Shown: positions 6,182-61,987 of the stretch, one piece after another | How positions within the stretch are numbered: position 1 is the first letter of the stretch | Layout: each line of letters begins with the position of its first letter | Made by a program: the position numbers and the translations under genes | Notes under the pieces: generated by a model | The model's database searches: none | Seen by the model: only the letters and a program-made list of their open reading frames with translations | Told to the model about the DNA's origin: nothing | Source of the DNA: a virus | Length of the DNA stretch: 64,000 nt | Reading direction: 5' to 3' (one strand) | UHGV virus genome: UHGV-0175639

Positions 6182-6501
6182 GCTGATCCCTCTTTCTCTC
6201 CCCGGATAATTCTGTTGCACACATCCACACACTCGTCGCAGATGAAAACGGCGTCCCCAGCAATTAACTTTTTGACGGCGTACTGGGATTTGTTGCAGAA
6301 GCTGCAACAAAGTGTTCGCCTGACTGATAAGGATGGAGCGCCAGATGTCAGCCGCTCCATATCGTTCTTGCGACGCAATATCACACGGCTGAACTCAACC
6401 AGTTTCTCCGGGGATATATCCTCCTCCGTAGCGAGCGTCTCTAGTCGTTCGAGTATGTTGAAGGCTTTTTCTTGGGTAATAGCAGAGTGCGATGTGGTCA
6501 T
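6178..6501 (-). CDS. ClpX-type C4 zinc-finger domain protein
   Basis: C-terminus [35 protein letters not shown] closely matches the ClpX N-terminal zinc-binding domain; no AAA+ module. Confidence 0.6.
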
Positions 6502-6965
6502 TTTCTTTCACCTTCAATGTTCGTGGCGCTGGCAAGATTGTCCTTGCGAAGAAGAGCGGCTATGCGCTTACTTCCATCCGAGATAACGCCCTCGTAATAC
6601 TCACGCTGCTCGTTGAGTTTTGATTTTGCCAACTCCAGTTGTTTTGTTAGTTCCGCAATACGGCAAACATCGTTGATACGCGTTTCCTCTAATGCGTTGA
6701 TCTCATCCAGTAGTGCCAGCACGGTAGCTGGACTGGCTGCGGCGATGAATTCAGCATTGGCCTGCTGTTCCATCTGGAAATCTTCATCGAAACCGCTTTC
6801 AGGATGCGCTCCTTCAATTCTGCAAATAGGAATATATCCAGCAACTTCACGATGAATTAGCGCATCATCACCATCTAATCGGCTCTCTCCATATTCGAGC
6901 GACCACTCACCACACGTTGCTTTCTCTGCCTTTTCACGCAGTGCCTGATAGTCAATCTTGCTCAC
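6498..6965 (-). CDS. Ead/Ea22-like prophage protein
   Basis: N-terminus [21 protein letters not shown] typical of Ea22-like proteins, from memory. Confidence 0.55.
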
Positions 6966-7462
6966 TGGATGACTCCTTTACGAAGCTGTTCAGCAATACT
7001 TACGCATATCTCTGCGCCTCTAATCAGCCCCGGAACGTTCTTGTTTGGCCCAACTTCACCATCAACAAAATCAATCATCGCGTTACGAGCCATATCCACG
7101 CCCTGCGCACGTACTTCAGCCAGAAAAGTATCGGTGGCTGGAGTCTCCGTTAATTCGCTAACCCAATTATCTCCGTGTTCCTCGGCACACATCGCATCGA
7201 ATGCTCGCTCAGATTCTTTCAGGGCTGCATTCTCCGCCGCTAATGCGTCTCTTTGCGCCCGCAACTTCTCAATTTCGGCAGCCATGTAGTAACCAACCAT
7301 AGCGAAGACGGCAAAAGAGTTGTCTGCCTCATCAGGCGACACTGAGGCCATTAGCAGGCCATCGTAAAAATCGTGACTCCCATTGGTGATCGCCACCGCA
7401 TAGGAGTCGTGGTTCTCGCGCTTGTGAATGAGAACTACGGGATTTTCGATTTTGTTACTCAT
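6962..7462 (-). CDS. hypothetical protein, 166 aa
   Basis: ORF preceded by the conserved GGAAAAACAC-ATG leader. Confidence 0.5.
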   Translation of the reverse strand: MSNKIENPVVLIHKRENHDSYAVAITNGSHDFYDGLLMASVSPDEADNSFAVFAMVGYYMAAEIEKLRAQRDALAAENAALKESERAFDAMCAEEHGDNWVSELTETPATDTFLAEVRAQGVDMARNAMIDFVDGEVGPNKNVPGLIRGAEICVSIAEQLRKGVIQ

Positions 7463-7600
7463 GTGTTTTTCTCTTCTTTGCTGTTACATAAGCACTACCA
7501 AGTGCTGGTTTATTTTCACAAATAAGAAAAGGTAGAAAACAATTTATTTAAGGCCATAACTTATGGCCTTTATTTATTCATGCAGAAGGATTTGTAGCGC

Positions 7601-7981
7601 CTAATTGTCGGATAAAATGGGTTGAGGTGCTTGCCAGTAAGCTCCACCGTCCCATGTGAACCCCATGCGAATAAGAGTGTTTATTGCGGCTTTGGTAGAC
7701 TCTGATTCGACGCTGACTTTTCGAAACTCTTGAACCTCTTTCGCCAACTTGTATGTAATTGTGCAGGGGACGATTGCAGCCCAGCCTTTCTCATGACTGT
7801 TAATGACCATCTGGATGTGACCATCCAGAATAGGTTGATCAGGCATGTTATTGAAAACGTCTGCCTGTTTTTGAATGTGAAGAAAAAGCCTTGCCAGCGC
7901 CATTTGCTCACTACGAGACAAGGGATTATCAAGAGGACTTTTTGCAAAAGCTGCTATACGCTGTGCATCAATGCCAAACAT
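7601..7981 (-). CDS. hypothetical protein, 126 aa
   Basis: ORF in the minus-strand array. Confidence 0.45.
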   Translation of the reverse strand: MFGIDAQRIAAFAKSPLDNPLSRSEQMALARLFLHIQKQADVFNNMPDQPILDGHIQMVINSHEKGWAAIVPCTITYKLAKEVQEFRKVSVESESTKAAINTLIRMGFTWDGGAYWQAPQPILSDN

Positions 7982-8685
7982 CAGCGCACCTCACCATCTT
8001 TATGGCTGGAGTTAACTTCCGCCATTAAATGTCTGACGTAATCGACAAGAGAGCCACCTGGTGGAATCTGGCATTCCTCAACTAACTGGAAGTAGATATC
8101 CGCTGCATTACGTGTATTACTACCCGCGCATATTCTTTCTTCCCGAAGTGCATGAAGCTCGTTGATCAAACGGTCACACTCTCCGTTACGCTGATCCACA
8201 ACGGCCTCAAGCTCTGCGACGCGTTCACCTGGCGTCTTACCTTCTTTGCGTTGGATGGTAACGACGAAATCGCCAATTGCAGGGACGTTGTAATCCAGCT
8301 CAAGGTAGTTTTTGGCACCGCTGCGGACGAACTCACCCGCGAACATGGTGGCGAACATCGCAGAGGCCACTTCGCCGTTGAAAAGTGACTCCAGATCTAA
8401 CGGAGTCCCGGCAGCAAGAGCCTCTTTTGCTGTATCCATTGCATCCATGAACCGATCAAACTCACTAGCGCGCTTTTCCAGGTCTTTCCATTGCTCGCTC
8501 CAACGTTTGGCAACGAAGTCTATGAATGTTTTCGCGGATTCATCAAAATTCCCCTCAAACTTAACGATGCCTTTATCAATAATGATCTGGCCTACCGCAT
8601 CCTCTGCATAACCTTTCAATGTAAACTTGAAAGGAAAATCGGAATGGCCTGTGACGTTAAAATGCTCTAACTGGAGGTTGCTCAT
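7981..8685 (-). CDS. hypothetical protein, 234 aa
   Basis: ORF preceded by the conserved leader. Confidence 0.5.
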   Translation of the reverse strand: MSNLQLEHFNVTGHSDFPFKFTLKGYAEDAVGQIIIDKGIVKFEGNFDESAKTFIDFVAKRWSEQWKDLEKRASEFDRFMDAMDTAKEALAAGTPLDLESLFNGEVASAMFATMFAGEFVRSGAKNYLELDYNVPAIGDFVVTIQRKEGKTPGERVAELEAVVDQRNGECDRLINELHALREERICAGSNTRNAADIYFQLVEECQIPPGGSLVDYVRHLMAEVNSSHKDGEVR

Positions 8686-8746
8686 GTGTTTTTCTCTTAT
8701 CGTTTAGTAACTACATTCTTACATAAATTAAGTAAGTATTTACCTA

Positions 8747-10432
8747 TCATTTAACGCGTTTGAAAACGTATACGCTGACTGTGATCCCTGTGTCTTCAAA
8801 CTCGTTGGTAAACGACTTCCCTCTGGCATAAACGTAATTATCCATCGTCATCCAGTCCAGTATTGGCGCAGTGCCCGGCAATACTGCTACAAGACGCCCG
8901 CCGACTTTCAGATGCCCCAGCGCAGCCAGCGTGTGCTCTCTATGACGACCAAGCGAGTACGGCGGGTTCATAACGATTTTGTCGAACTGATAACCTGCGT
9001 TGTCCTCAGACCACTTTATGAAGTCGCAGCAAATCGTGTTCGTATACCCTTTTCCACGCAGGATATCAGCGAAGAGAGGTGCGATTTCTATGCAGGTAAC
9101 ATCTTCCAGATCGGCGTTTATATAGGCCAGAAGATCCCCACGTCCGGCTTGAGGCTCCAACAGCTTCTCACCAGGCTTCAATTCAGTGGCTCTTGCAACG
9201 TACTCAGCAATCAAGCGTGGGGTAGGGTAGAACTGGTGTGATTTTGTATCCGGTATTAAACCGGTAGCCACAATCGTATTTAGCGTATGGCCGATGTCAT
9301 ACGGGAACTGCCAGTGCTTTTTCTCCTGCACGCCGCCAATGAAGCTCAGTGTGCGCTCAAGCTCTTCCACCTGCGACTTCTGGAGAGCTGAATCAGAGAA
9401 GTACCATACGCCTTTGTCTTTGCTCAATCGCCCGTCACGAAGCGCAGTGCGAACCGGCACGGAGATCGTCTTCTGGATTAACCCGAACTGCTTTGGTGCC
9501 CGTGTTTTTGGCGCAGTTCGGCATGGCGCGGGGATTGCAGCAGGCATACTGTAAGCCAGCACCTCATTCAACTTCCAGGCCACGTCAGGATGTATTTCAA
9601 AGTGAACGTTGCCGTTCTTGAACATCTTCACGCGCATCAGATTTCCATCGACGTTCATCCAGTCACCGGTCTGGCAGTCGTTTGCCCGATACGCAGCTGA
9701 TAGCACCTCAGCAGTGCGGTTGATGGTAATAAATTCTTTGTGCGCGAAGAAATGAAGCAAGACACGCAGATCGTCGATGTAGTCCTCTTTGCGATAGTTC
9801 ACGCTAACGCTGTCCCGCCAGAAATCAGAAATGCAGTCAGCGATTATCAGACGCTCGCTGAAACCGTTTGTCTTATTTGTCTTGTGCGCAGGACTCAGCG
9901 CCTTAAACAAGCCATACACGCGCTCAGAGAGATATTTGTGCCTGTCATTCAGCAAATTAAGCATCGTGGGTATGACCGTTTCTGCTTTGAACTCCGGTAC
10001 ACCAACGAACTCTTTAACCTTCATCTGGTAGCCGGTTCTGTCAGTTTTGATGACTTCCTGTTTGCCCTCTATAAACTGCTCGCGCCACTCATCTCGACGG
10101 GAAGCTGGCATGATCAGCAAAACGTTAGTCATGTCCGTGACCTTCCTCCAGTACTCGGCCCAAATATTCTGTTTCACCCATTCCAGATCGACTTTATCCA
10201 ACCAACCTCGATTTAAACGCGAGCGATCTTCATCTGGTCGATGGTTTAGTCTCAGCAGGCGATTAATCATGTTGTGGCGTTCGTCGCCATAAACGAAGTC
10301 GTGTACCTGATACATGAAGGCGATCTCTTTCTCGCACTCGGCCACGATTTCGTGGATGACATTCATTTCCTGACGATAGTCGATAGCCGTGTTTGAGCTG
10401 GCATCGTCGATGATGGAAAGGGCTGTATTCAT
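8747..10432 (-). CDS. 561-aa protein with a C-terminal SAM-dependent N6-adenine methyltransferase-like domain
   Basis: C-terminal about 170 aa contain FYPTP, EPQAGRGDL and NPPYS motifs; N-terminal about 380 aa unassigned. Confidence 0.6.
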   Translation of the reverse strand: MNTALSIIDDASSNTAIDYRQEMNVIHEIVAECEKEIAFMYQVHDFVYGDERHNMINRLLRLNHRPDEDRSRLNRGWLDKVDLEWVKQNIWAEYWRKVTDMTNVLLIMPASRRDEWREQFIEGKQEVIKTDRTGYQMKVKEFVGVPEFKAETVIPTMLNLLNDRHKYLSERVYGLFKALSPAHKTNKTNGFSERLIIADCISDFWRDSVSVNYRKEDYIDDLRVLLHFFAHKEFITINRTAEVLSAAYRANDCQTGDWMNVDGNLMRVKMFKNGNVHFEIHPDVAWKLNEVLAYSMPAAIPAPCRTAPKTRAPKQFGLIQKTISVPVRTALRDGRLSKDKGVWYFSDSALQKSQVEELERTLSFIGGVQEKKHWQFPYDIGHTLNTIVATGLIPDTKSHQFYPTPRLIAEYVARATELKPGEKLLEPQAGRGDLLAYINADLEDVTCIEIAPLFADILRGKGYTNTICCDFIKWSEDNAGYQFDKIVMNPPYSLGRHREHTLAALGHLKVGGRLVAVLPGTAPILDWMTMDNYVYARGKSFTNEFEDTGITVSVYVFKRVK

Positions 10433-10573
10433 AATTACACCATTAAATAATTTGTTTTCTGATTGGTGTAATTATCGCAAACTTGAAAAGGCATAAAAGC
10501 TGCATTCATAGGCGTTACAGCAGATTTAAGGCGTAAAAATGGGGGCTTTCGCCCCCTGTCGACTGGTGCAGTA

Positions 10574-11140
10574 TTAGAGTGCGTATTGCGTTTTGTGCGG
10601 TTGCTTATTCAAGTCGTGGCGATGCGTAAGCTCCCGCATCATGTCTTCAAGCCGACTTTTCGTATCATCAAGCTGGTCGGCCATTGCTCCCAAAAGCTGG
10701 CGAACGGCCATTGGATCGTCACTGTTTAGTGATGGCATTTTATATCCCGCTTTAGAAGACATAAGATTGATTGCAGACATCAACATCGTTAGAGAAGACT
10801 TAAGTCCGGCAATTTCACGATCTTTGCTGGCAATAATCGTCTCACTATTGTTACCGTCATGGGTTCCTTGAGTCTCGCTCACCATATCCAAAGTCGCCTG
10901 CAACTTATTAGCGCGCTCTTTTTCGGCAAGATAATGAACACCGAAATGGTGTGCCAAAGCTACAACCTGAGTTGGCTCTTCAAAGGTGGAATTAAAATTA
11001 AGTACTGTAAACAGTCTCTCAAATATAGAAACGTCTTCTGTTCCCCGAACAATGCCTAACATTTTGACAAGTTCATTAGCATCCATTTCTTCGAATAGGG
11101 CGTTTTGTTCATCAGCTATTGCTTTGCATTTCTCGCACAT
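10574..11140 (-). CDS. hypothetical protein, 188 aa
   Basis: ORF with conserved leader and upstream AAACAAnTTGTTT motif. Confidence 0.5.
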   Translation of the reverse strand: MCEKCKAIADEQNALFEEMDANELVKMLGIVRGTEDVSIFERLFTVLNFNSTFEEPTQVVALAHHFGVHYLAEKERANKLQATLDMVSETQGTHDGNNSETIIASKDREIAGLKSSLTMLMSAINLMSSKAGYKMPSLNSDDPMAVRQLLGAMADQLDDTKSRLEDMMRELTHRHDLNKQPHKTQYAL

Positions 11141-11437
11141 GTGTTTTCCTTAATGCTTAAACAAGTTGTTTTCTTATTGGCTTTATTGTGATGTGGCATA
11201 AAAGGGGAGCAAGCTAAACGTAAAGGTGCAAACTCTCTATTTCGGTCAACGAAACACAAGGGCCAAATGGCCCTTGTCATTAACACTTTGCTTTACGAAC
11301 TAACGGATAAGCGAAGTAGATCGCCAAACCAATGAGGACGCCATCAGAAATGACAGACATCATCTTTCCCGTAAAATCCACCAACACCGCCATCACCAGA
11401 AGAGCAATGACGATCACAAGCCGGAATCTCTCAAGCA

Positions 11438-11863
11438 TTAGAGATAAGCATCCAGTGACAACTGAAGCGCCTGGGCGATCTTTTTCAGTGCCTGCTCTTC
11501 TTGTTCACCAATGCCGTCCTGATCGGCAATATCAAGGCACAGACACAGAACATCGACCGCCTCTGGAGTACCCGCAATATCAGACAGCTCACGAATAGCC
11601 TGTGCATTAGCAGAACGAGGGGACGCTTCGTAACGAGCACGGATATTGGCGCTCATTTGGGCAATTTCACCAGCAAACGGAGAAAACGCAGGCAGAGCTG
11701 CAATTGTCTTCTCAAGAATGGCAATTTCTTTTGCGTCACATGTGCCGTCGGCATAGGAGATCATGTACGCGCCCCACACGGTGGCCTCAACCGCATCACG
11801 GTTCTCCATTTTTTTGACTTCGATAACAGCTTTACGAGTTTTCTTTTTGAAGAAACCTAACAT
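11438..11863 (-). CDS. TerB-like domain protein
   Basis: 141 aa; acidic helical pattern resembling the TerB fold, from memory; weak. Confidence 0.4.
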   Translation of the reverse strand: MLGFFKKKTRKAVIEVKKMENRDAVEATVWGAYMISYADGTCDAKEIAILEKTIAALPAFSPFAGEIAQMSANIRARYEASPRSANAQAIRELSDIAGTPEAVDVLCLCLDIADQDGIGEQEEQALKKIAQALQLSLDAYL

Positions 11864-11956
11864 GTGTTTTCCTTTTATTATTTGTCAAAACAAGTTGTTT
11901 TCTAATTACATAAATTGCTTACGCAAAGATGGTCAATGCATATGCACTAACAGCCG

Positions 11957-12145
11957 TCAGAAATAACCAAGTACCGAACCGACTGGAAAAACAAAAATCC
12001 CAACTACACGAGCCAAGGTCATGCCAGCCTGAAACTGGAGATCGCCAGAGCAAACAAGTTTTATAATGTTCGATACCCAACCGGCGGCCATGAGGGCAAG
12101 AATTGCCAGCCAAATTTTTCCAAAGTGATTTGAAAACCAGTTCAT
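11957..12145 (-). CDS. small membrane protein, 62 aa
   Basis: Two hydrophobic segments. Confidence 0.35.
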   Translation of the reverse strand: MNWFSNHFGKIWLAILALMAAGWVSNIIKLVCSGDLQFQAGMTLARVVGIFVFPVGSVLGYF

Positions 12146-12154
12146 ACAACCGCC

Positions 12155-12649
12155 TTAGTCACAGCATGATCCTGAGTAACCGGATGAACTTGAGGTATCG
12201 CATCCACCGTCATCCCATCCAGAGTGACAGGACGCTCTACTGGAGTGGTGGTAATTGTCGTCGACGGAGGTGTGGTGATGGATGAACCCGGCATCAAAAG
12301 GCTCTGGCCGGCTGGAACGGCTACCGTCGCCAGTGAAACTATAATGAGAACGTAGGCCATTGGTTTCAGCCTCTTTCTTTGAAAATTTTCCATTCGAACT
12401 GTCCTTGTTGTTTTTCTCCTTCACTAAAGGCCGTGTACTTTTCGCTTCGCGTGAAGAACCAGAGGCAACAATCGCCCCCACGTTCGCAACAACTGACGCT
12501 TGATTATCTAAACGTTCATTCAGCAACCGAACGGTAGTCTCTAGTTCATCAAGACGTGACATAACACGACCGCTAAATAATTCGGCCAAAATTTGACGTA
12601 AAGAACGAGGACGTTTAGTTACAGAAGTGAAATAGGTTTGACGTGCCAT
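12155..12649 (-). CDS. hypothetical protein; frame ambiguous with overlapping signal-peptide ORF 12142-12393
   Basis: N-terminal 85 aa look protein-like (coiled coil), C-terminal part is low complexity; an alternative frame encodes a signal peptide MAYVLIIVSLATVAVPAGQ. Confidence 0.3.
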   Translation of the reverse strand: MARQTYFTSVTKRPRSLRQILAELFSGRVMSRLDELETTVRLLNERLDNQASVVANVGAIVASGSSREAKSTRPLVKEKNNKDSSNGKFSKKEAETNGLRSHYSFTGDGSRSSRPEPFDAGFIHHHTSVDDNYHHSSRASCHSGWDDGGCDTSSSSGYSGSCCD

Positions 12650-12797
12650 GTGGACTCCATCCAGTGTCAGAAAGAGTTGCGGCTGGCGATTGCCAGCCGC
12701 CTTTCTCGTTCCATCCTGGAACTGTGTCTTACCGACACATTGTCATCCTGACGCCGATAAGATACATGATTTAAAATGATAGGTAAACACTTACTTA

Positions 12798-13388
12798 CTA
12801 TTTGTTATAAACAAAACCAATATCTTTCTTGTGAGGCATATCTGCTGCTGAAAAAGCTGCGATCTTCGCGAGTCGATCACATATTTCATTTTCACGATGC
12901 CCGGCGTGACCTTTAACCCACTTCCAGCGAACATTATGTCGACTTGCGGCCTCATCCAGACGCTTCCACAGATCAACATTCTTTACCGGTTTTTTGTCAG
13001 AAGTCATCCATCCATTGCGTTTCCACCATTTCATCCACTGTGTCATGCCGTTTTTCAGATACTGGCTATCAGAGTGCAAAATAACGTTGCATGGATATTT
13101 CAAACGCTCCAGCCCGATAAGTGCCCCCATCATCTCCATGCGGTTATTGGTGGTGCTATGAAAACCATCTGAGAACTCGCGTTCCTCACCACGATACTGG
13201 AGAACGATACCGTAACCGCCCGGGCCACCCGGATTTTTAAGGCAAGAGCCATCACTAAAGATTTTCACGGTTTTAAGCTGGGGATTGAACTCTACGACAG
13301 GCGTTGTGGGATTGGTGCGGGGAGAATTTTTGTTTTTGTCTTTTTTGCGAGTTTTTGCTTGCGATCGGGCTGGTGTCTTCGTCGTCAT
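12798..13388 (-). CDS. rnhA: ribonuclease H
   Basis: [17 protein letters not shown]...[10 protein letters not shown]...HSDSQY...KGHAGH matches RNase HI; start set at MTTKT with a GGAG RBS. Confidence 0.85.
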
Positions 13389-13970
13389 ATAAACTCCTGA
13401 ATCAAGCGCCGCGCCGATTTTTCCTCGCGCGTGCGCACACGCGTGCGTGTTAATAATTATTAAAATAAACAAATTACTTCCCAGAACAGGTTTTTATAAA
13501 CCTGAACTGAACGAACGAAGTGAGTGAAGTTCACCTCGAACGAAGTGAGAGGTTGTCTTTTCAGGTAATACTCTCCCAGGGAGGTGAGTATAAAAATCTC
13601 TCACCAACCTGGTCGTTTCATAACCTGAAAAGTTATGGTCTAAGTCTACTGCCAGCTTAGACTTGGGAAGTTATGGATGACAGCACCCCAGAACCGAGAT
13701 CTTCCCACACTTTATGAAGGGGAGTACTGGATTCAACCTCTCGAAACACCCCAGACTCGACAATCATAAAGTGACCCTTGTCTCTGCTCACTTTGGTTCC
13801 CCCTTCCCCGACACCTAAACGGCACCAGTTCTACGCTGGTAGTGAGCTTTTTTAAACCTGACGCCAGTGACGCTTACCCCCACCCATCAGGTCGAGTCTC
13901 CAGTCTACGACTGGAAACTATCAGATCTTAGCACTTACAATTCACTTTATGAATAGTTTGTACTTATCTA

Positions 13971-52504: not shown

Positions 52505-52667
52505 CCTTAATCTCCTTCACGGTGTTGGTTATTTCTACAATGCGATAAATACGACCGCGTCTTTCTATAACACCGCTTTTAATGTAGTCATTGATGCAAC
52601 TGGACATCACCACAATACCTATGAAAAAACCAACTGCTAAAAATGCAATCATCCAACCGAGCATCAT
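52488..52667 (-). CDS. small membrane protein, 59 aa
   Basis: MMLGWMIAFLAVGFFIGIVV...; start overlaps the ligase stop. Confidence 0.35.
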   Translation of the reverse strand: MMLGWMIAFLAVGFFIGIVVMSSCINDYIKSGVIERRGRIYRIVEITNTVKEIKDDRIK

Positions 52668-53985
52668 TCTTTATCTCCGATTCGATCTTCTGTATCGCGT
52701 AAGCAACGCGGCCATTTCAGTCGTGGGTGGCGTAAGCTGCCATCCGGCGTTTTCTCGTGACAATGAACCTCGACAATACGACCACGGTACTTCTCTTTGT
52801 TGTTCCAGATCTCGTCCAGATATTTATGCTTAATGCCGCTCGCACGAACAATCACACCGTTTTCAAGGCGAATAACAATTTTTCCAAGCGTGTTGGCAAA
52901 ACCAGAGTCCGGATCGCCCGGCTCAAAGTCGATAATTTCACCATCTTCTGAATCTTCGTCTTTTAACTTCCACCAGCTGCGGGTACGTTTAAACTCGTAA
53001 ACAGAGTTCGGATCTTTGCCCATCTCCCCTTCTTCGTTATCGTCCAGGCGTTTCATGAAGCGTTCGATGAAGTCTTCGTGGCTATGGATGATATAGAACG
53101 GATGCAGGTGAATGTCTTGTGTGTAGCCTTCACTGCGATCGTTTTTGAACAACGCCACCAGCATAGCCAGGCGCTCTTTCAGCTTCATACCTGTCTTTGC
53201 ATACTCTTTGGATTTAGCCTGTGCTCGCCATTCCGGTAGGAAGAAGTCGAAAATATGATAAATAGCGCCAATTGCCTGCACGTTCTTTTTGCGCAATGCA
53301 GATACGGACTGGTTAAATGAACCGGCTGTGCCTTCACCATCGAAGAAGATGTGTTTGTGGCCTGAAAGTTTGCCTAATTCGAGCATGGCTGGCTTTAGGT
53401 GATCGAGAGACGTGATTGGATTACCAGTACGAGAAAGGAAGTTAACCTCTTCTTCGTCAACAATAACCTCGCAAATTACTCGCAAACCATCGAGCTTAAG
53501 GCTGCCAATCATCGGCCATTTTGCTTTAGGATTTGGCTTGAAGGGGTATTTGTCGCCTTTTCTTTATACGGTGACGCCAGCTGCACCTCGAATTTCGGAA
53601 TGGGATTTTCAAAAACCTTGTTGCATAGGCTAATCCCAACACCCGCTTTCGGGTCTTTTAAGAGGAAACGACGGAACACGTCCTGCCCATCGGCGCACAT
53701 TGACGCCACGATAGACTCAACAGCAGCTATTGCTGCGTTCCCCGTTAGCTCGCGAGAGGCCAGCTTATTCAGTACATCAATGGCTTTTTCGTCACTTGGG
53801 ATGGACTCACTAAGCGGCTCTGCCACTTTGTATTTCTTTACCCCAAAACGGATGAAAGGGTTGAGCATCAATGAAACCATGCTTTGCTCGAAGTCATCCA
53901 TGTTGGCCAATGCCTCTTTTTTTGCATTGGTTCCCATAGCTTTCATTTCGTCCAGCTTATGCTTAAGTGCGATCAACTTTTTCAT
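52664..53985 (-). pseudogene. ATP-dependent DNA ligase (T4-like), reading frame broken by a 1-nt shift in an A4 run
   Basis: N-terminal ORF aligns to T4 ligase up to YKEK; the KxDGxR adenylation motif (SLKLDGLR) lies in the next ORF in the -1 frame; shift maps to the T4 run at 53558-53561 (plus strand). Confidence 0.7.
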
Positions 53986-54452
53986 TGTTGTTTTACCTCC
54001 ATATGTTGATCGATTTGCTCATGTGTTTCTTTTGTTGTTTCTTCAAGCAACGCCGCATACACGTCAGTGATCGCTGTTTGTGATGTGGTGCTCTTCTTAA
54101 CCATGCTATTAATCGTTACACTGTCACGTTTTCGTTTTAAAGTTCTGGCTTGTTTATTCCGTTCTTCAACCTCCTTAATGAGCGCGGTCATATCTTCGAA
54201 ATACAGAGATTCTCCTTTACGAATCTCTTCAACCATCATTTTTAACGCCTTGCATTTGCCTGCTTTGATAGCGGTTGCGCACGACTGGAATGAAGTTCGA
54301 GGAAGACGGTTTTCTTTGAAGGCAAGAATGGTGTGCTGGCAAACGGAGTAGCTGCAATATGCCGACTCACCGTTTATCTTTACTTCCTCACAACGAAGTG
54401 AATAACCGTTATTTCCTGAAATAGAAGGGATTTTTGACAAATCAGCTTTCAC
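53982..54452 (-). CDS. hypothetical Cys-rich protein, 156 aa
   Basis: ORF only. Confidence 0.5.
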   Translation of the reverse strand: MKADLSKIPSISGNNGYSLRCEEVKINGESAYCSYSVCQHTILAFKENRLPRTSFQSCATAIKAGKCKALKMMVEEIRKGESLYFEDMTALIKEVEERNKQARTLKRKRDSVTINSMVKKSTTSQTAITDVYAALLEETTKETHEQIDQHMEVKQQ

Positions 54453-54519: not shown

Positions 54520-55296
54520 TTACCAACTTCCCCAGCTAATCATCTTGCGCTGATCGCTTTCTAAGCGATAAGGGGCAAGAAGCTCTGTGACATGATTGGT
54601 GGCGTATGATTTAGCCTCTTGTTTAATCATCGGTAATTCGTTAGCAATCCTGACCATCTTCCCAGTAAATTCCGCCATTACGCCATCACAAGCCTTCCCC
54701 GCATCTACAACGATATGCACAAGATCCAACTGGCTTTTGCACATATCCCAAAGAGACGCGTATTCACTCTCTCTGATTACATTTACGGCACTATTAGCCC
54801 CTTTATTAATCAAAACTTCCAACAGATTTTTCGGGGTAACGAAATCTGCTTTCAGAGATAATGTCTTTTCACCACTTATCGAACGCAAGTACTCTTCGTA
54901 GTTATTCTTCATCAAACCGCTGCTGCGCATTGCTAGAACTGCTTCTTGAATGGCCGCTTCAATAGTTTCGTCGTTTGAAAGACAAAAAACGGTATTTGTG
55001 TAGATCACTCTGCCATCAAGCCATGCTCCAACCTGCACTTTAAGACTGAGCGGGTTTTCTTTGCTAATAAAAACAACTAATGCAGAACGCCGTGCACAAG
55101 AAGGTTCGCCCCATACGTGTAACTCAACTTTCAGATAAGGCAACCCTGGTAGCGGGATCTCGTCCATACGAGCAGCGATATGATTCATTGCTGTATTGAC
55201 GGCCTTTCCAATGATGTCTAGTCGACTGCCCTCGCTGATTTCTAAACCTGTTTTATCAATGATGTCACAGGCCAATTTCTGAATTTCGTCTTTCAT
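54520..55296 (-). CDS. hypothetical protein, 258 aa
   Basis: ORF only. Confidence 0.5.
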   Translation of the reverse strand: MKDEIQKLACDIIDKTGLEISEGSRLDIIGKAVNTAMNHIAARMDEIPLPGLPYLKVELHVWGEPSCARRSALVVFISKENPLSLKVQVGAWLDGRVIYTNTVFCLSNDETIEAAIQEAVLAMRSSGLMKNNYEEYLRSISGEKTLSLKADFVTPKNLLEVLINKGANSAVNVIRESEYASLWDMCKSQLDLVHIVVDAGKACDGVMAEFTGKMVRIANELPMIKQEAKSYATNHVTELLAPYRLESDQRKMISWGSW

Positions 55297-55421
55297 ACCA
55301 ACTCCTAGCTAACAGATGAAAGTATTCTTACAAAAAACTAAGTATGTATCTACTTATCATTTTAGGCGCAATAGTTCCCTATACGAAGATGCCGGGCTTA
55401 TAGTCTGCCCGGCATTCACCA

Positions 55422-55835
55422 TTAATGAGCTACAGCCTCACTGTTGCACATCTTTCTGTAGACCTGCTTATAACGCTGTAAGTCATGAGGATCATTAGGT
55501 GCCAACGACTTCGATAGGATTTTGTATACCACCCCTTTCGAAAACATGCCCTTTGGCTTCATTTCGAGTTCAACAACATATGAGTGATAGCCCACGTATG
55601 CACCAAAGCCATTTTTGGCGTTCAATTCTCCGCACACAAAGCCTGTCACACTCCCATCGTCATGATCAGTCCTGACAAACTTATCTTTCCTAAACATCAC
55701 CGACGTGGGATCTTTCATATCATCCGCAATTGCTTGTTGGCCCAGAGCAATAGCCTTCTCGTCTGTAGGCTTACACCCCACTAAAGCAAACAAAGACAAT
55801 AAAGCTCCTGTTAAAATCAGCTTATTTTTGCTCAT
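55422..55835 (-). CDS. lipoprotein, 137 aa
   Basis: Signal peptide with lipobox LVGC; hairpin terminator downstream at 55391-55413. Confidence 0.55.
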   Translation of the reverse strand: MSKNKLILTGALLSLFALVGCKPTDEKAIALGQQAIADDMKDPTSVMFRKDKFVRTDHDDGSVTGFVCGELNAKNGFGAYVGYHSYVVELEMKPKGMFSKGVVYKILSKSLAPNDPHDLQRYKQVYRKMCNSEAVAH

Positions 55836-56068
55836 GTTGGCTTCCCTTTATTTATATTTATCGCAGGTATTAGTTAATCAAAACACGAGCAGTGCCACAA
55901 TAATTAAATGGCGTACTATTTCTTATGGTTATTAGTTTCCTAGTAACTTTACCGACCATAAACTAAATCAACAAAGCTGACATATTAACTAAATTTAAGT
56001 ACCCTTTTTCGCACACTTGACGCTTGCCGCGTCTAAACTGTTCATCCTATATCAACAGAACAAAAAAT

Positions 56069-57214
56069 ATGAAATACATAAAATCTTCATCGTTGCTGGC
56101 ATTAACTTTGCTTTTTAGCTCTGGATTCGTTAACGCAGACAATAAACAAACGCTGATAGAAGCCGCTACCGCAGGGGATACCGCAGCACAAAGTGAGTTA
56201 GGGACAAATTATTTTGATGGTATCAATGGTTTTGATAAGGATGTAGTTGAGGCCAAGAAGTGGATTGATCTCGCTGCAGAAAAGGGAGACAAAGTAGCAT
56301 ATTATGCACTTGGGGTTATGTACACATTTGGCGAGGGTGTAGATAAAGACCTAAATAAAGCTGTTGAGTACTACAAACTTGCGGGGGATGCTCGTGAAGG
56401 TAGAGCCTACAACAATCTTGGTGCTATTTATCAAAAGGGGTTGCTTGGTAAAGTAGATCATGCACTCGCCATTAAATACTTCAAACTAGCCTCTGATGCC
56501 GGGTATGTTAAAGCAACTTCAGTTCTTGGGGCGTATTACCAATATGGTAAAGGCGTTAAAAAGAATTATAAAAAGGCTTTTACTTATTACAAAAAGGCGG
56601 CAGACCAAGGCAGTTCAGAAGCTATGATAGGATTAGGAATACTATACGATGATGGGTTAGGCGTTAAACGCAATGATGCAGAAGCAGTTAAGTGGTATAA
56701 AAAGGCAGCGGAACTTGGAAACGCCGACGCCATAACCAATCTTGGCATTATGTATGAGAATGGGGAAGGTGTAAAAAAGGACTATAAAAAAGCAGCCGAC
56801 CTTTATCAGACTGCTTGCGATAAAGGAGAAAAAAGAGGCTGCGATTACATTGCAGAACTGAAAGAAAGCGGCAAATATCGAGCGCCGGCTTCCAAAGCCA
56901 AAACAAAATCCGCCACCCAGCGACTTATTGCTAAATCCATTGATAAGGGCGTTAACGCTACATTTACCTGGCAGGGTGATGATGCTACCTTCACCGCTAA
57001 TGATGGCAAAGTTGACTGCACATTCCTGAAGGATTTTTCAGAGAAAGGAGGCAATCTGGCTACCTCGTTTGTTTGCACAGATAACGTTCAAATCATCCTG
57101 AAGCAATTCAGAGATACCAAAAATGCCTACCTCGCGGTAATGACTGACAACTTCAATACTGAAGTTAAATCATTTTCGGTCAATGTGTATGTGACTAATA
57201 CTGGTTCAAACTAA
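56069..57214 (+). CDS. secreted Sel1-like repeat protein
   Basis: Signal peptide MKYIKSSSLLALTLLFSSGFVNA; at least six Sel1-type repeats followed by a C-terminal domain of about 120 aa; AT-rich by eye. Confidence 0.7.
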   Translation: MKYIKSSSLLALTLLFSSGFVNADNKQTLIEAATAGDTAAQSELGTNYFDGINGFDKDVVEAKKWIDLAAEKGDKVAYYALGVMYTFGEGVDKDLNKAVEYYKLAGDAREGRAYNNLGAIYQKGLLGKVDHALAIKYFKLASDAGYVKATSVLGAYYQYGKGVKKNYKKAFTYYKKAADQGSSEAMIGLGILYDDGLGVKRNDAEAVKWYKKAAELGNADAITNLGIMYENGEGVKKDYKKAADLYQTACDKGEKRGCDYIAELKESGKYRAPASKAKTKSATQRLIAKSIDKGVNATFTWQGDDATFTANDGKVDCTFLKDFSEKGGNLATSFVCTDNVQIILKQFRDTKNAYLAVMTDNFNTEVKSFSVNVYVTNTGSN

Positions 57215-58387
57215 TGCAGCTATGCCTTTTACCTTGCTTAAAAGTTCAAGCTGTCGTGAGTAAGGTTTTGCGCAATAGTAGGCTTTGATAATCTGCCCCG
57301 GGGTCGCATCGCCGGGGTCGAGTCCTTCCTCGCCCAAACATGCAATTTTCACATTAAGACCAATACTGCTCAGTCGCCTGGCTGCGGCCATAGTGTTGCG
57401 TATAGCCTGCTTTTCACTATCCCACATCATAATCACATTACGTAGCCCACGCGCCTTGAGCGTCAGGAACGCGCCCAGCTGATCTTCTGCATCCTGAGTG
57501 GTGTTACCAGATAGATGCATCCCGAACGTTCCTATTGGTTCCACGTAATCACGTAATGTTTCTTCGTCAAAAATAGCTCGTTTGACCCCCATAACATCGA
57601 ACGCCCCCTCACAGACAACTACAGTCTGTTTGCCGACTGCATTATGGCCGTTGTAGAGAAACCTACCTGAAGCTGGAAGCTGCATAGGAAAGAGGTAGCG
57701 ACGTTCTGCTGCACCGGTAATGTCACGCCCCTGGAAGGTCTTCATCACGCCATCCAGATCGTAAACCGGTATCAGGATGCGCATATCAAACACCTGCCCT
57801 TTGACCTGGTCTGTGTACGGATCGACGTATGCGTGCTTGCCTTCGACGCAGTAACGCAGATCAAAGTATTTGGCCAGATCCGGGGAGATATGGCGCTCCA
57901 CCAGATAATCAGGAAGACGACCGTCAATGGGGAGTTCGTAATGTCGAGGGAGAGCTACTGGCCCTTCGAGTTCAACCTTGCTGGCCAGCACGACCTCTTC
58001 CTTCTTCGGCGCCCATCCTTGTGAGATCAGCGCGTTCTGCACATATTCCTCGAACTGTCGTCGTGATTTACCGCTGTAGTGCTTGAGGAAGATCAGCTTA
58101 TTGAACTGAATCTCTTCGGGATGATCACCAGCAAAGCATTTGCCGACGCCACTGGTCAGATTGAAATATACCTTCCAGTTGGAGCTGCCACATACCGGAC
58201 ACTCCTTGATATTCACTTCACGACCGCGAGCACTCACGCCTCCACGTCGATAAACGATACCTTCAGTGTCCAACCATTGTTCAAAATCTAATTCGGTAAT
58301 TAGCTCTTTCAGCTCGCTCACGATAATTCCACTTTTAATAGGCAATATTGTGACCAACCTAAATGTTGATATAATATAAAGGTTCAT
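57206..58387 (-). CDS. DNA primase (zinc ribbon plus TOPRIM)
   Basis: CPVCGSS zinc motif and TOPRIM-like VVVCEGAFD; start set at the conserved leader. Confidence 0.7.
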   Translation of the reverse strand: MNLYIISTFRLVTILPIKSGIIVSELKELITELDFEQWLDTEGIVYRRGGVSARGREVNIKECPVCGSSNWKVYFNLTSGVGKCFAGDHPEEIQFNKLIFLKHYSGKSRRQFEEYVQNALISQGWAPKKEEVVLASKVELEGPVALPRHYELPIDGRLPDYLVERHISPDLAKYFDLRYCVEGKHAYVDPYTDQVKGQVFDMRILIPVYDLDGVMKTFQGRDITGAAERRYLFPMQLPASGRFLYNGHNAVGKQTVVVCEGAFDVMGVKRAIFDEETLRDYVEPIGTFGMHLSGNTTQDAEDQLGAFLTLKARGLRNVIMMWDSEKQAIRNTMAAARRLSSIGLNVKIACLGEEGLDPGDATPGQIIKAYYCAKPYSRQLELLSKVKGIAALV

Positions 58388-58468
58388 GTGTTTTTCTTTT
58401 GTGGTTTGGCAAAAGAAAAGTTGTTTCACCAATGAATCAAGCGTGGAGGTGTTCTCCACGCTTATTTT

Positions 58469-59809
58469 TTAGGTAACGTCTAAGATTCGCTCAATGAAGC
58501 GCATTTGTTCGAGGTTTTGTTTAACGCGAATGCTGATCCCTCCCTGCTGGTTACGTGAACCAGCAAAGTAGAGACGAGCCTCTCCTTTCGCTTCTTCTTC
58601 TTCGGTTTTGTTGATCGTTATTACCAGGTCAGCAATACGTACTTTTTCGAAGTTGTCGGCAGCCTGCATCATTGTGGCATCTTCTGTCGCGCCACCTTCA
58701 CGGTTTGTCTGCGATGCCGTAATCCCAGCAACGTTATGCTTGTCATAAAGAGCACGTAAATCGGTGTAGATACTACGAATGTTGGCGCGATCATCACGAA
58801 GGTCATAACTGGCACGCATCAAATCTGCGTAGTCGACAACAACCATGTCAGGCACCATGCCGTTGGCTTTCATGCTGTTAAGCATACGGTCCAGATCTGC
58901 CGGTGACATACTTCCTGACGGACGCTCAACCACCCACAAACTACCAATCCCCTTCGTGGCTCCCAACTCTGCCAACTTACGATGAACCTCATCGCGCCGT
59001 TCCACCAGCTTGGACATTTCTGTCTCCGACAATCTTGCATCAAAACGGTCGGATAAAATGGTGGTGTGAACCTCCAGCGAGAGATACAGAACATTGTAGC
59101 CAGCAAGCGTTGCGTTTATGGAAAACTCACCCATTGCGGTCGATTTGCCGGATTTAGCGAACCCCATGAAGAGCACCATTTCACGCTTCGCCCAGCCTTT
59201 TTGGTACAGCAACCTATCGAGCAGAGGGAGTCCAGTTGTAATGCTGTTTGGCACATACTCCTCTGAAGCCTCATATTCACGCGCTTTCAATCGCTCACTT
59301 GCGGAGGTGTAGTAGTCATAGATTCCGGTCGCTTCGTTCGAGCCTATCTGCTGAACCTTGGCCATGATTGCCATCGCCCCCTGAAAGTCGCCCTTCTCTT
59401 TCAGTTCAGCAGCTTTAATCAGAGCATCATCAAACGCTACACTTTTTGCGAATGTGGATACCTGGTCAACCATGTACGTGGTATCAGACAATTTTTCTGC
59501 AAGGATGCGCTTAAACGCAGCAACAACATCCGGGAAGAGTTCCTCACGGATGGTCTTATCGCGTTTCGCGCGCTTAAGCATATCCAGAATCGCAGATGAA
59601 GAAGGCGCGCTCTTGTACATACGGTAATAGCCCGAAACCATATTAACCAATATGGCATTGGCCGCATTGGCAAATTGGCTAGGCACAACCAGATCTCCCG
59701 CACGAGTAAGAAACTCGTGATCACGACAAAAATATGCCGTCAGTCTGTTCTGGAAATCTTCATCAAACTCTTCGGACAGCCCGCGTCCTGTATGGCAAAG
59801 TTCGGTCAT
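58469..59809 (-). CDS. DnaB-like replicative helicase
   Basis: RecA-fold Walker A GFAKSGKST and Walker B VVVDYADL. Confidence 0.8.
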   Translation of the reverse strand: MTELCHTGRGLSEEFDEDFQNRLTAYFCRDHEFLTRAGDLVVPSQFANAANAILVNMVSGYYRMYKSAPSSSAILDMLKRAKRDKTIREELFPDVVAAFKRILAEKLSDTTYMVDQVSTFAKSVAFDDALIKAAELKEKGDFQGAMAIMAKVQQIGSNEATGIYDYYTSASERLKAREYEASEEYVPNSITTGLPLLDRLLYQKGWAKREMVLFMGFAKSGKSTAMGEFSINATLAGYNVLYLSLEVHTTILSDRFDARLSETEMSKLVERRDEVHRKLAELGATKGIGSLWVVERPSGSMSPADLDRMLNSMKANGMVPDMVVVDYADLMRASYDLRDDRANIRSIYTDLRALYDKHNVAGITASQTNREGGATEDATMMQAADNFEKVRIADLVITINKTEEEEAKGEARLYFAGSRNQQGGISIRVKQNLEQMRFIERILDVT

Positions 59810-60790: not shown

Positions 60791-61987
60791 TTAAACATCT
60801 TTTAGAAAGCCTGGAAACCAATGTTTCATGATATACCTAAAATGTGCTCTAGTTGGTTCAAAAACCTGTCTAGATACCAGCGCTCCATCAGGATGATTCT
60901 GAACAGACTGTTCTTTTTCCATATCGTAAAAATTATGAGTTATCTCTGGGGGGAAGAAAATATTTCTGTCCAGTGGCACTGTCGCAAAAGGATTGTAGTA
61001 AATATGAAGGCCGTCAAAGTGCGTCTCTTCATGAGCAGTGGAATGACAAACTACAATATCCGCACCAGTGACTTCGTTATTTAAAAAATGCCGATATGTA
61101 GTGATGAAATGATCAGGTCCTATCCTTTGTGTGTGCTTTCCCTCGTTTTTCATCCCTTCATTGGCGATGAAATCATTCACATCAATGGCTCGATATCGTG
61201 TTGACCTTACATATCTACCGATACCGCTTTGAACCACGGCTTTTCCAAAAGTGCCGGTGGTGGAGAAAATAACCGCACTTATTTCTTTATATGAGTCGTT
61301 AGTAAATATACCTAATGGAATTTCAACGTCTTCATTCTTTTTGATTGAGGTAACTTTAGTTTGGCTGCCAGTCACCAAATTTCTGGTGGTAGGTTCCTCA
61401 ATGCCAAACAACACTCGATTGATGATTGTGTTATTTTGAGACAATGATAAATCGGAGTCAAAGGGTGCAAGCGCCAGAACAAACGGCTTATTAACTACAT
61501 GAGACATCGTAGAGTACGGGAATTTTTTGCCATTAACTCCTGTAAAAAGATCATGTTTGTCTTTGATTTTTCCGATTAATTTTAGCGTTGATTGATGTTT
61601 GAATTTTGATTCGCTAAAAAGAACACCTGCAGGTGGATTATGTGGCCGATCTGATATCACAGCTTCGACGTTAAACTGGTAGCCTGACGGTGTAGTAACA
61701 CAGAAATCGGGACTGTCTTTTGTGTAGTCGACAGAATAATCGAGACGAATAAACATTTCGTTCAGATACAATTCCCATAAGGCGGAATTGAAGGTTGTCT
61801 GAAACTCTTTAACGAATTTAGTCTGCTCACCGCTACGCTCCAGTAACCCACGCCCCCACGACTGTATCACTTCTCTTACTGGAGCATATGTATTATCTTG
61901 ATAAATCTGTTTAAAAGATTCGTGCAGCTTGTTTTTTGCTATTTTGGTTGAGAACAAATCCATTATTAGCCTCACTAACCAGTTCAA
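60791..61987 (-). CDS. hypothetical protein, 398 aa (island gene 2)
   Basis: No recognised domain; AT-rich by eye; start may be the internal MDLFSTK. Confidence 0.5.
   Translation of the reverse strand: MNWLVRLIMDLFSTKIAKNKLHESFKQIYQDNTYAPVREVIQSWGRGLLERSGEQTKFVKEFQTTFNSALWELYLNEMFIRLDYSVDYTKDSPDFCVTTPSGYQFNVEAVISDRPHNPPAGVLFSESKFKHQSTLKLIGKIKDKHDLFTGVNGKKFPYSTMSHVVNKPFVLALAPFDSDLSLSQNNTIINRVLFGIEEPTTRNLVTGSQTKVTSIKKNEDVEIPLGIFTNDSYKEISAVIFSTTGTFGKAVVQSGIGRYVRSTRYRAIDVNDFIANEGMKNEGKHTQRIGPDHFITTYRHFLNNEVTGADIVVCHSTAHEETHFDGLHIYYNPFATVPLDRNIFFPPEITHNFYDMEKEQSVQNHPDGALVSRQVFEPTRAHFRYIMKHWFPGFLKDV

What the first reader, a model, noticed from the sequence alone, without database searches (positions are those of the whole stretch)
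56069..57214. Secreted Sel1-repeat protein encoded as a plus-strand AT-rich moron
It has a signal peptide, at least six Sel1-like repeats and a C-terminal domain of unknown fold, and is transcribed against the flow of the surrounding genes. Secreted Sel1-repeat proteins are usually interaction modules, so this looks like lysogenic-conversion cargo.
Basis: partly seen in the sequence, partly recalled or inferred. Interest (0 to 1): 0.45.

Follow-up and report, generated by a model that had tools for sequence, protein, structure and literature searches.

The report
Periplasmic Sel1-repeat cargo gene of phage-plasmid
This is a real accessory gene, carried by some SSU5-type E. coli phage-plasmids and a few other prophages, that encodes an exported protein with six Sel1 repeats and a rare, highly conserved small beta-barrel domain; it is not a virion or replication part and its function is untested.

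Summary
ORF 56069-57214 (+) encodes a 381-aa protein: a Sec signal peptide, six in-phase 36-aa Sel1 repeats (Pfam E=1e-54) and a separate ~95-aa C-terminal domain. The window is an E. coli SSU5/pHCM2-type phage-plasmid.

The gene is accessory. It lies in a 1,864-bp insertion, together with a divergent lipoprotein gene, that phage Cyrano lacks. Phage SSU5 has an unrelated gene in the same slot. About 18% of E. coli relatives carry it. Orthologues sit in lambdoid prophages, a myovirus tail module and chromosomal islands, and some copies are cut by IS elements.

"AT-rich" is only mild (41.6% vs 45.5% GC). "Secreted" is overstated: the evidence supports export to the periplasm, and two orthologues have lipoprotein signals.

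The C-terminal domain is the best-conserved part (dN/dS about 0.05). It matches no Pfam, NCBIfam or PDB sequence. A profile search of 1.84 billion proteins found nine matches, seven of them genuine and all tied to Sel1 proteins. AlphaFold models it confidently as an 8-stranded beta-barrel with two invariant cysteines, a generic fold shared with PliC/MliC/PhiA inhibitors and a T6SS immunity protein.

The likeliest role is an envelope-protective binder or inhibitor in the lysogen. That is inferred, not shown. Interest is modest.

The parts
55358..57221 (.). 1,864-bp segment that replaces 30 bp of phage Cyrano. It holds the lipoprotein gene, the spacer and the Sel1 gene. Its right edge lies inside the last codons of the primase gene.
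   Evidence: blastn of the window against the Cyrano locus: homology stops at 55357 and resumes at 57222. Cyrano annotation shows the primase directly followed by the 258-aa gene homologue.
55422..55835 (-). Divergent neighbour: a 137-aa predicted lipoprotein (lipobox LVGC, phrog_2320, function unknown). It co-occurs with the Sel1 gene in E. coli phage-plasmids and is absent from the one Enterobacter phage-plasmid locus read (pOSUEC_F).
55977..56005 (+). Candidate promoter block: CTGACA (55977-55982), 17-nt spacer, TACCCT (56000-56005). It is conserved upstream of orthologues whose coding regions are saturated at synonymous sites.
   Evidence: Alignment A5. A regex scan found the block in 7 of 13 contexts, including a chromosome and a myovirus. 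The generic sigma-70 scan did not report it. No transcription start site data exist.
56069..56137 (+). Signal peptide, residues 1-23 (MKYIKSSSLLALTLLFSSGFVNA|DN), SPase I type.
   Evidence: Hydropathy and the -3/-1 rule. Conserved hydrophobic N-termini in all full-length orthologues.
56183..56830 (+). Six 36-aa Sel1 repeats (residues 39-254). Capping helices lie at residues 24-38 and 255-268. A CX7C pair (C250, C258) lies across the boundary of the last repeat and the C-terminal capping helix.
   Evidence: Pfam PF08238 E=9.8e-55. Repeat register. AF2 pLDDT >90, 14 helices. Cys positions.
56873..56920 (+). Lys/Ala/Ser-rich linker, residues 269-284. It is poorly conserved and has low pLDDT.
56921..57214 (+). 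C-terminal domain (residues 285-381) plus stop codon. It is predicted as an 8-stranded antiparallel beta-barrel with invariant C317 and C336, and is the most conserved part of the protein.
57206..57214 (.). 9-bp convergent overlap between the 3' end of the Sel1 gene and the 3' end of the DNA primase gene (57206-58459, - strand). The same overlap is seen in Enterobacter and other E. coli alleles.

Best explanation
This is a moron-like accessory gene of an SSU5/pHCM2-type E. coli phage-plasmid.

Shown by computation:
- It occupies a variable slot between the primase gene and a 258-aa gene.
- It has been moved among unrelated temperate phages and genomic islands.
- Both of its domains are under purifying selection.
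- It encodes a protein with a Sec/SPase I signal, a six-repeat Sel1 superhelix and a rare, highly conserved C-terminal 8-stranded beta-barrel domain.

Inferred:
- The protein is exported to the periplasm of the lysogen and stabilised there by two disulfides (C250-C258, C317-C336).
- It acts alone, with no conserved partner gene, as a two-part binder. The variable Sel1 array and the constant barrel would clamp or sequester a protein that enters or works in the cell envelope.

Most likely purpose (inferred, and the weakest step): it protects the carrier cell's envelope. It would act as an immunity or exclusion factor against an incoming enzyme. The leading candidate target is a peptidoglycan hydrolase or another periplasm-acting effector, such as a T6SS or CDI toxin, a lysozyme, or the lysin of a superinfecting phage's virion. 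It is not a virion or replication component.
For: Identity and accessory status:
- The window is near-identical to ~110-kb E. coli plasmids and related to phages Cyrano and SSU5.
- The gene is an insertion relative to Cyrano. SSU5 has an unrelated 321-aa gene in the same slot.
- The backbone is in 254 of 5,426 complete E. coli genomes, the gene in 45, always on plasmids.
- Orthologues lie after tail-fibre genes of lambdoid prophages, inside a myovirus tail module and in a chromosomal island with orphan CdiA-CT fragments and IS elements.
- Copies are cut by IS1 or other IS elements.
- A conserved upstream promoter-like block moves with the gene.

Export:
- A signal peptide is present in every full-length member, and two have lipoboxes.
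- The cysteine pairs are conserved.

Functional constraint:
- dN/dS is 0.16 for the Sel1 part and 0.045 for the C-domain.
- The C-domain is 66-99% identical where the Sel1 part is 50-67% identical.
- Repeat number varies (345, 381 and 417-aa alleles).

Fold:
- The barrel is modelled at pLDDT 87.5.

Precedent:
- The Legionella Sel1 protein EnhC inhibits the lytic transglycosylase Slt (from my own knowledge, not checked here).
Against: - No target, phenotype or expression data exist.
- The MliC/PliC sequence motifs and the Pfam MliC model do not match.
- PADLOC gives no defence-family hit apart from a spurious 39-residue match.
- The association with CdiA-CT fragments is a single locus and the genes are not adjacent.
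- No strong consensus promoter, Shine-Dalgarno sequence or terminator was found.
- The gene is rare even among its own relatives, so any benefit is conditional.
Confidence: 0.45

Rival explanations
1. It is a host-interaction or colonisation factor. The protein would be released or surface-exposed and bind an animal-host molecule, as reported for E. coli EsiB (secretory IgA binding), the Helicobacter Hcp proteins or Legionella LpnE. In that case the phage-plasmid converts its host's virulence or colonisation properties.
For: The best characterised PDB sequence relatives of the repeat array are EsiB/c5321 of E. coli CFT073 (4bwr, E=5e-65), a Legionella TPR/Sel1 protein (6deh) and HcpC (1ouv). 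There is an Hcp-like CX7C pair. The carriers are gut and extra-intestinal E. coli from humans and animals.
Against: Similarity among Sel1 arrays is generic. No secretion route beyond Sec is encoded nearby. The lipoprotein variants point to envelope residence. Family members also occur in Pantoea, including a plasmid of one Pantoea strain. The most conserved part is the barrel, which EsiB, Hcp and LpnE lack.
Confidence: 0.2
2. It is an envelope regulator that serves the element itself. It would be a periplasmic adaptor or inhibitor of the host's own machinery, such as peptidoglycan hydrolases, a sensor kinase or an export apparatus. Precedents are ExoR, EnhC, MotX, AlgK or NlpI. The effect would be to tune envelope physiology, lysis timing or plasmid-state fitness.
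For: The only NCBIfam hits are periplasmic Sel1 proteins of this kind: MerG, MotX, AlgK and ExoR. It is a single-gene module with no partner. The C-domain is strongly conserved across host genera, which fits a conserved host target.
Against: All of those hits are far below the family cut-offs (78 bits against 350, for example). The gene is dispensable for phage SSU5 and Cyrano. It is IS-disrupted in maintained plasmids.
Confidence: 0.2
3. It is a decaying or neutral hitch-hiker with no current function.
For: Distribution is patchy. Several copies are truncated or IS-interrupted. Translation and transcription signals are weak.
Against: Intact ORFs persist across synonymous-site saturation, with dN/dS of 0.05-0.16. 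Signal peptides and cysteines are conserved. The gene has been acquired repeatedly by different elements.
Confidence: 0.05
4. It is a virion or replication-module component. The conserved overlap with the primase gene would then reflect functional coupling.
For: The 9-bp overlap with the primase 3' end is conserved in E. coli and Enterobacter phage-plasmids.
Against: The gene is absent from the sequenced phages SSU5 and Cyrano. It encodes an exported protein. Elsewhere it occurs far from any primase gene.
Confidence: 0.02

Closest known systems
Bacterial periplasmic or secreted Sel1-like-repeat (SLR) proteins: EsiB (PDB 4bwr), HcpB/HcpC (1klx, 1ouv), LpnE/EnhC, ExoR, MotX, MerG
   Same: Signal peptide followed by an array of 36-aa Sel1 repeats forming an alpha-alpha superhelix. 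An Hcp-type CX7C cysteine pair. Strong sequence similarity of the repeat array.
   Different: None of the matched models covers the C-terminal barrel. Scores against the equivalog models MerG, MotX, AlgK and ExoR are far below their cut-offs. Only one repeat carries the cysteine pair, whereas Hcp proteins have one in every repeat (the Hcp detail is from my own knowledge).
Sel1-repeat T6SS immunity proteins: Klebsiella Sel1E for VgrG4; P. aeruginosa PA5086-5088 for PldB
   Same: Sel1-repeat proteins that neutralise an incoming toxin by binding it. They are single genes without an enzymatic domain. Sel1E also has an uncharacterised C-terminal extension (PMC7108748).
   Different: No T6SS effector gene lies next to any family member examined. 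The export status of Sel1E is unclear in that paper. The C-domain profile found no T6SS-linked proteins among 1.84 billion representatives.
Small periplasmic beta-barrel inhibitors of peptidoglycan hydrolases: MliC/PliC, Brucella PhiA, Neisseria ACP
   Different: Sequence identity is 5-15%. There is no Pfam MliC hit. The MliC motifs (SxSGAxY, YxxxTKG, recalled from my own knowledge) are absent from the sequence. Here the barrel is always fused to a Sel1 array.
Phage morons and prophage-encoded envelope proteins: lambda lom and bor, the cor and llp exclusion lipoproteins
   Same: An extra gene between conserved phage genes, present in some relatives only, on the opposite strand or at a module boundary. 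Its product is exported to the envelope. It is often placed after tail-fibre genes. The moron concept is reviewed in PMC3594210 (seen).
   Different: No terminator was found. The promoter is only a conserved candidate. No exclusion or serum-resistance phenotype is known. There is no sequence relationship to Lom, Bor, Cor or Llp.

Membership tests
Sel1 repeat family (Pfam PF08238; SLR subclass of TPR-like solenoids) | Multiple 36-38-aa repeats matching the Sel1 profile above the gathering score | tested here: met
   181.5 bits against a cut-off of 30.7, with 6 stretches. Six repeats in exact 36-aa register.
Sel1 repeat family (Pfam PF08238; SLR subclass of TPR-like solenoids) | Helix-turn-helix pairs stacked into a superhelix | tested here: met
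   AF2 gives 14 helices at pLDDT >90 for residues 24-267. This is a prediction, not an experimental structure.
Phage moron (an autonomous extra transcription unit in a phage genome) | Present between two genes that are adjacent in related phages | tested here: met
   Cyrano has the primase gene and the 258-aa gene 75 bp apart. The window has 1,864 bp of extra DNA there.
Phage moron (an autonomous extra transcription unit in a phage genome) | Own promoter and terminator, and expression from the repressed prophage | tested here: inconclusive
   The conserved block CTGACA-N17-TA(A/C)CCT travels with the gene. The generic scan found no sigma-70 promoter and no + strand terminator. Expression could not be tested.
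Phage moron (an autonomous extra transcription unit in a phage genome) | Base composition different from the surrounding genome | tested here: inconclusive
   41.6% against 45.5% GC, the 11th percentile of equal-sized windows.
MliC/PliC lysozyme inhibitors (Pfam MliC) | Sequence match to the family profile and its conserved lysozyme-binding motifs | tested here: not met
   No MliC hit even at E<=10 for 13 domain sequences. The motifs are absent on inspection of the sequence.
MliC/PliC lysozyme inhibitors (Pfam MliC) | Small exported 8-stranded beta-barrel | tested here: met
T6SS/CDI immunity proteins | Encoded immediately downstream of a cognate toxin gene, or in an orphan toxin-immunity array | tested here: not met
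   No effector is adjacent in the phage-plasmids, prophages or Pantoea. One locus lies among CdiA-CT fragments but is not adjacent to them.
T6SS/CDI immunity proteins | Binds and neutralises a specific toxin | not testable with these tools
   This needs co-expression, competition or binding assays.
Known anti-phage defence systems (PADLOC-DB v2) | Profile match to a catalogued defence protein | tested here: not met
   The only hit is a 39-residue, 22.6-bit match to the PtuA N-terminal region, with no stretch passing on its own.
Virion structural or core replication genes of SSU5-like elements | Conserved in all functional relatives | tested here: not met
   Absent from SSU5, Cyrano, CMS-2020a and PhiR41_1. 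Present in 45 of 254 E. coli backbone carriers.

The most novel reading that the evidence does not exclude
The conserved C-terminal barrel is a new, uncatalogued inhibitor domain. The Sel1-barrel protein would then be a phage-borne orphan immunity or exclusion factor. Temperate phages and phage-plasmids of Enterobacterales would trade it to shield their lysogens' periplasm from a specific incoming enzyme: a T6SS or CDI effector, a lysozyme, or a rival phage's virion-associated peptidoglycan hydrolase. The swappable Sel1 array (5, 6 or 7 repeats, 50-67% identity) would tune specificity.
Probability: 0.2. Interest if true: 0.6.

Novelty: new variant of a known kind. Interest (0 to 1): 0.3.

Why it matters
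SSU5-type phage-plasmids are common in clinical and animal E. coli and are watched as carriers of resistance genes such as blaCTX-M-15. What their other cargo does for the host is largely unknown.

This gene is a clean example of cargo shared between phage-plasmids, integrated prophages and islands. It carries a very rare and strongly constrained domain with no family assignment. If it proves to be an envelope immunity or exclusion factor, that would add a new protein type to prophage-encoded protection and give a function to an orphan domain. If it does nothing measurable, it is one more uncharacterised Sel1 protein.

Tried and rejected
1. Longer ORF from TTG 56024. Rejected because orthologue N-termini and the DNA alignment converge on ATG 56069.
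2. Lipoprotein or transmembrane anchor for this copy. Rejected because there is no Cys before residue 250. Two orthologues do have lipoboxes.
4. Ig-like or Big_5 relationship, suggested by a weak hit of the VNATFTW..D..F motif to an SbsA-Ig-like repeat protein (P0128, E=8e-5). Not supported by the AF2 barrel model.
5. P0126 (a 1,089-aa perfect tandem repeat) in the same search is an artefact.
6. Stand-alone C-domain proteins (P0001, P0002, P0003) turned out to be remnants. P0002 is cut by IS1 and P0003 follows an IS. P0001 is a short 3' remnant next to a small convergent ORF that overlaps it by 9 bp, possibly a primase remnant (not checked).
7. Positive selection on the Sel1 array. Not shown: dN/dS is 0.16 and dS is saturated. 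The dS contrast (1.39 against 0.21) indicates a recombination mosaic instead.
8. Full-length AF2 did not resolve the C-domain (pLDDT 26-57). The domain-only run did.
10. Literature searches for Sel1 together with SSU5, pHCM2, prophage or superinfection exclusion found nothing on this protein.
11. The tblastn search of the phage collection found only partial, <60%-identity Sel1 matches and no full-length orthologue, although PHROG 8741 matches over the full length and IMG/VR holds 24 loci.

Full report
**1. What is in the sequence**

ORF 56069..57214 (+) starts with ATG and encodes 381 aa. An in-frame TTG at 56024 would add 15 residues. All orthologues begin at the equivalent of the ATG (MK[YLF]I...), and DNA conservation runs into ATATGAAA.

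The protein has four parts.
- **Signal peptide.** Residues 1-23 have two lysines, a hydrophobic core and VNA|DN, which is an SPase I-type Sec signal by heuristic. There is no cysteine before residue 250.
- **Sel1 array.** Residues 39-254 form six Sel1 repeats in exact 36-aa register (Pfam PF08238, E=9.8e-55, 6 stretches). AlphaFold2 models residues 24-267 as 14 helices at pLDDT >90. A CX7C pair (C250, C258) spans the last repeat and the capping helix and is conserved in the full-length orthologues.
- **Linker.** Residues 269-284 are basic and poorly conserved.
- **C-terminal domain.** It covers about 95 aa (residues 285-381).

**2. What the surrounding element is**

The 3.2-kb neighbourhood is 99.9% identical to ~110-kb non-mobilisable E. 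coli plasmids such as pEcFELIX526.1. It is about 94.5% identical to pECOH89 (NC_023916.1). Its primase and helicase part is 83-91% identical to phages Cyrano, CMS-2020a, PhiR41_1 and SSU5. The window is therefore an SSU5/pHCM2-type phage-plasmid.

Neighbouring genes are all on the - strand:
- a DNA ligase gene, here split into two ORFs (52664..53985);
- two unknown genes (53982..54452 and 54520..55296);
- a lipoprotein gene (55422..55835);
- the primase gene (57206..58459);
- a DnaB-like helicase gene (58469..59809).

The Sel1 gene is the only + strand gene in the run between the ligase and the genes beyond the helicase. It converges on the primase gene with a 9-bp overlap.

**3. It is accessory**

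Relative to phage Cyrano, window 55358..57221 (1,864 bp) replaces 30 bp. The extra DNA contains both the lipoprotein gene and the Sel1 gene.

Other relatives differ at the same slot.
- SSU5 carries an unrelated 321-aa + strand gene with no signal peptide.
- An Enterobacter hormaechei phage-plasmid has a 417-aa Sel1 orthologue there (54% identity), with the same primase overlap but no lipoprotein gene.
- An E. fergusonii plasmid has the Sel1 gene cut by IS1.

Between the E. coli and Enterobacter elements, primase and helicase are 89% and 93% identical. The Sel1 protein is 54% identical and the adjacent 258-aa protein 40%.

In 5,426 complete E. coli genomes the primase-helicase backbone is found in 254. 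The Sel1 gene (at least 80% covered) is found in 45, always on plasmids. Among PLSDB plasmids, 395 match the region and 55 cover at least 80% of it. No sequenced phage genome in the phage collection encodes a full-length copy. IMG/VR holds 24 loci and PHROG 8741 matches end to end.

**4. It moves between elements**

Family members, defined by the C-domain, occur in several settings:
- directly after tail-fibre genes at the end of lambdoid prophages in Leclercia and in metagenomes;
- between tail genes of a contractile-tailed phage (L041);
- IS-truncated, next to prophage tail genes in Enterobacter kobei;
- in a Pseudenterobacter timonensis chromosomal island with IS elements and orphan CdiA-CT fragments;
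- on large Pantoea replicons without phage context.

Among 185,579 GTDB species representatives only five loci were found, all in Enterobacterales.

A 29-nt block, CTGACA-N17-TA(A/C)CCT, lies 88-107 nt upstream of the start codon. It is conserved in 7 of 13 contexts, including chromosomal and myovirus copies whose coding sequences are saturated at synonymous sites. It keeps a 5/6 -35 hexamer, a 17-nt spacer and the T-A...T positions of a -10 hexamer. I read it as the gene's own promoter, but this is inference. The generic promoter scan did not report it, and no Shine-Dalgarno sequence or + strand terminator is evident.

Composition is only mildly AT-shifted: 41.6% against 45.5% GC, the 11th percentile.

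**5. The C-terminal domain is the core of the family**

Across orthologues the Sel1 part is 50-67% identical and the C-domain is 66-99% identical. There are 18 invariant positions across all 13 sequences, including two cysteines (C317, C336).

dN/dS against another E. coli allele is 0.16 for the Sel1 part and 0.045 for the C-domain. dS differs sevenfold between the two parts (1.39 against 0.21). The gene is therefore a recombination mosaic: different repeat arrays (5, 6 or 7 repeats; 345, 381 and 417 aa) joined to one conserved barrel.

The domain has no Pfam or NCBIfam family and no PDB sequence relative. A profile search of 1.84 billion cluster representatives gave nine hits. Seven are genuine, and all are Sel1-fused proteins or their fragments. 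One hit is a repeat artefact and one is a weak motif match. A second profile search added nothing.

Modelled alone with 13 sequences, the domain gives a confident AlphaFold2 model (pLDDT 87.5, pTM 0.78) of eight antiparallel strands.
- **Foldseek against the PDB.** It gave nothing below E=0.001.
- **BFVD.** The best viral matches are ~106-118-aa phage proteins. One is from Escherichia phage Mt1B1_P17 (TM 0.76) and one is annotated 'putative lysozyme inhibitor'.

The fold is generic. This is resemblance, not membership. The MliC profile and motifs do not match.

**6. Localisation**

Every full-length family member has an N-terminal export signal. Two (L041 and a Pantoea plasmid copy) have lipoboxes instead of SPase I sites. 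With two conserved cysteine pairs, this points to the periplasm or inner face of the envelope. Extracellular secretion cannot be inferred, because no dedicated secretion genes accompany the gene.

**7. Mechanism**

*Shown by computation:* an exported, two-domain, non-enzymatic protein. It is a single-gene module with no conserved partner, it is under purifying selection, and it is repeatedly acquired by temperate elements.

*Inferred:* it binds a protein in the envelope of the lysogen.

I rank an envelope-protective role first (about 0.45). This could be immunity to a periplasm-acting toxin or exclusion of a rival phage, with peptidoglycan hydrolases as leading candidate targets. The reasons are:
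- single exported proteins in these genomic positions are typically of this type;
- Sel1 proteins have precedent as T6SS immunity proteins (Sel1E; PMC7108748) and as a lytic-transglycosylase inhibitor (EnhC; from my own knowledge);
- several soluble structural neighbours of the barrel are hydrolase inhibitors or an immunity protein;
- a variable array attached to a constant domain suits changing specificity.

The rivals are:
- a host-interaction factor like EsiB or Hcp (0.2);
- a regulator of the host's own envelope machinery like ExoR, MotX or NlpI (0.2);
- a neutral passenger (0.05);
- a structural or replication role (0.02).

PADLOC gives no support for a catalogued defence system.

**8. 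Novelty and verdict**

The gene is already annotated in RefSeq as 'tetratricopeptide repeat protein' and sits in a PHROG of unknown function. No paper found here discusses it.

It is a Sel1-repeat envelope protein carried as phage cargo, which is a known kind of thing. Its architecture, Sel1 array plus a dedicated and very rare conserved barrel, was not found in the family libraries or papers searched here. I class it as a new variant of a known kind.

Interest is modest at 0.3.

Noticed in passing
window 60791..61987 (-): A 398-aa protein matches the PADLOC anti-phage defence protein PD-T7-5 (E=2e-139) and PD-T7-1 more weakly. It lies in a low-GC patch (39.3% GC). Relatives such as SSU5 and pEcFELIX526.1 have a DUF2971 gene at about that position. 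This looks like a second variable cargo slot, here carrying a defence gene.
   Followed up: partly
window 52664..53985 (-), about position 53558: The ATP-dependent DNA ligase gene is split into two ORFs (158 aa and 282 aa). The cause is a 1-nt deletion relative to the intact 440-aa ligase gene of phage Cyrano (98.5% identical DNA). It is either a frameshift pseudogene or a sequencing error. In pEcFELIX526.1, ISEcp1-blaCTX-M-15 lies between the small hypothetical genes and the 160-aa gene, about where this ligase region would lie.
   Followed up: partly
window 55422..55835 (-): A 137-aa predicted lipoprotein (lipobox LVGC; phrog_2320, unknown function; no Pfam, NCBIfam or PADLOC hit). It is divergently arranged with the Sel1 gene inside the same insertion. 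It occurs in about 69 plasmids, including Cronobacter phage-plasmids at about 59% identity, and is absent from the one Enterobacter phage-plasmid read here that has the Sel1 gene. It could be a separate envelope or exclusion moron.
   Followed up: partly
window 54520..55296 (-): This 258-aa protein of unknown function (phrog_4248) is only 40% identical between E. coli and Enterobacter phage-plasmids, while the nearby primase and helicase are 89-93% identical. It is a fast-evolving backbone gene next to the cargo slot.
   Followed up: no
window about 55337..55357: A palindrome, TAAGTATGTATCTACTTA, sits at the left edge of the insertion. It is conserved in Cyrano and in the Enterobacter phage-plasmid, where it directly abuts the upstream region of the Sel1 gene. 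It may be a terminator or regulatory hairpin of the backbone and marks the insertion boundary.
   Followed up: no
L005 (Salmonella phage SSU5) 2994..3959 (+), gene SSU5_041: The same slot in SSU5 holds an unrelated 321-aa cytoplasmic protein with no PADLOC hit (Pfam was not run on it). The primase/258-aa junction is therefore a cargo hotspot with alternative occupants.
   Followed up: partly
L006 (Pseudenterobacter timonensis FCOP01000010.1) 5768..13894: The chromosomal orthologue lies in an island with two CdiA fragments (Fil_haemagg_2; one with a PT-VENN toxin junction followed by a 127-aa ORF), a NERD-domain gene and IS fragments. This is a possible link to contact-dependent inhibition and immunity arrays, but it is a single locus and the genes are not adjacent.
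   Followed up: no
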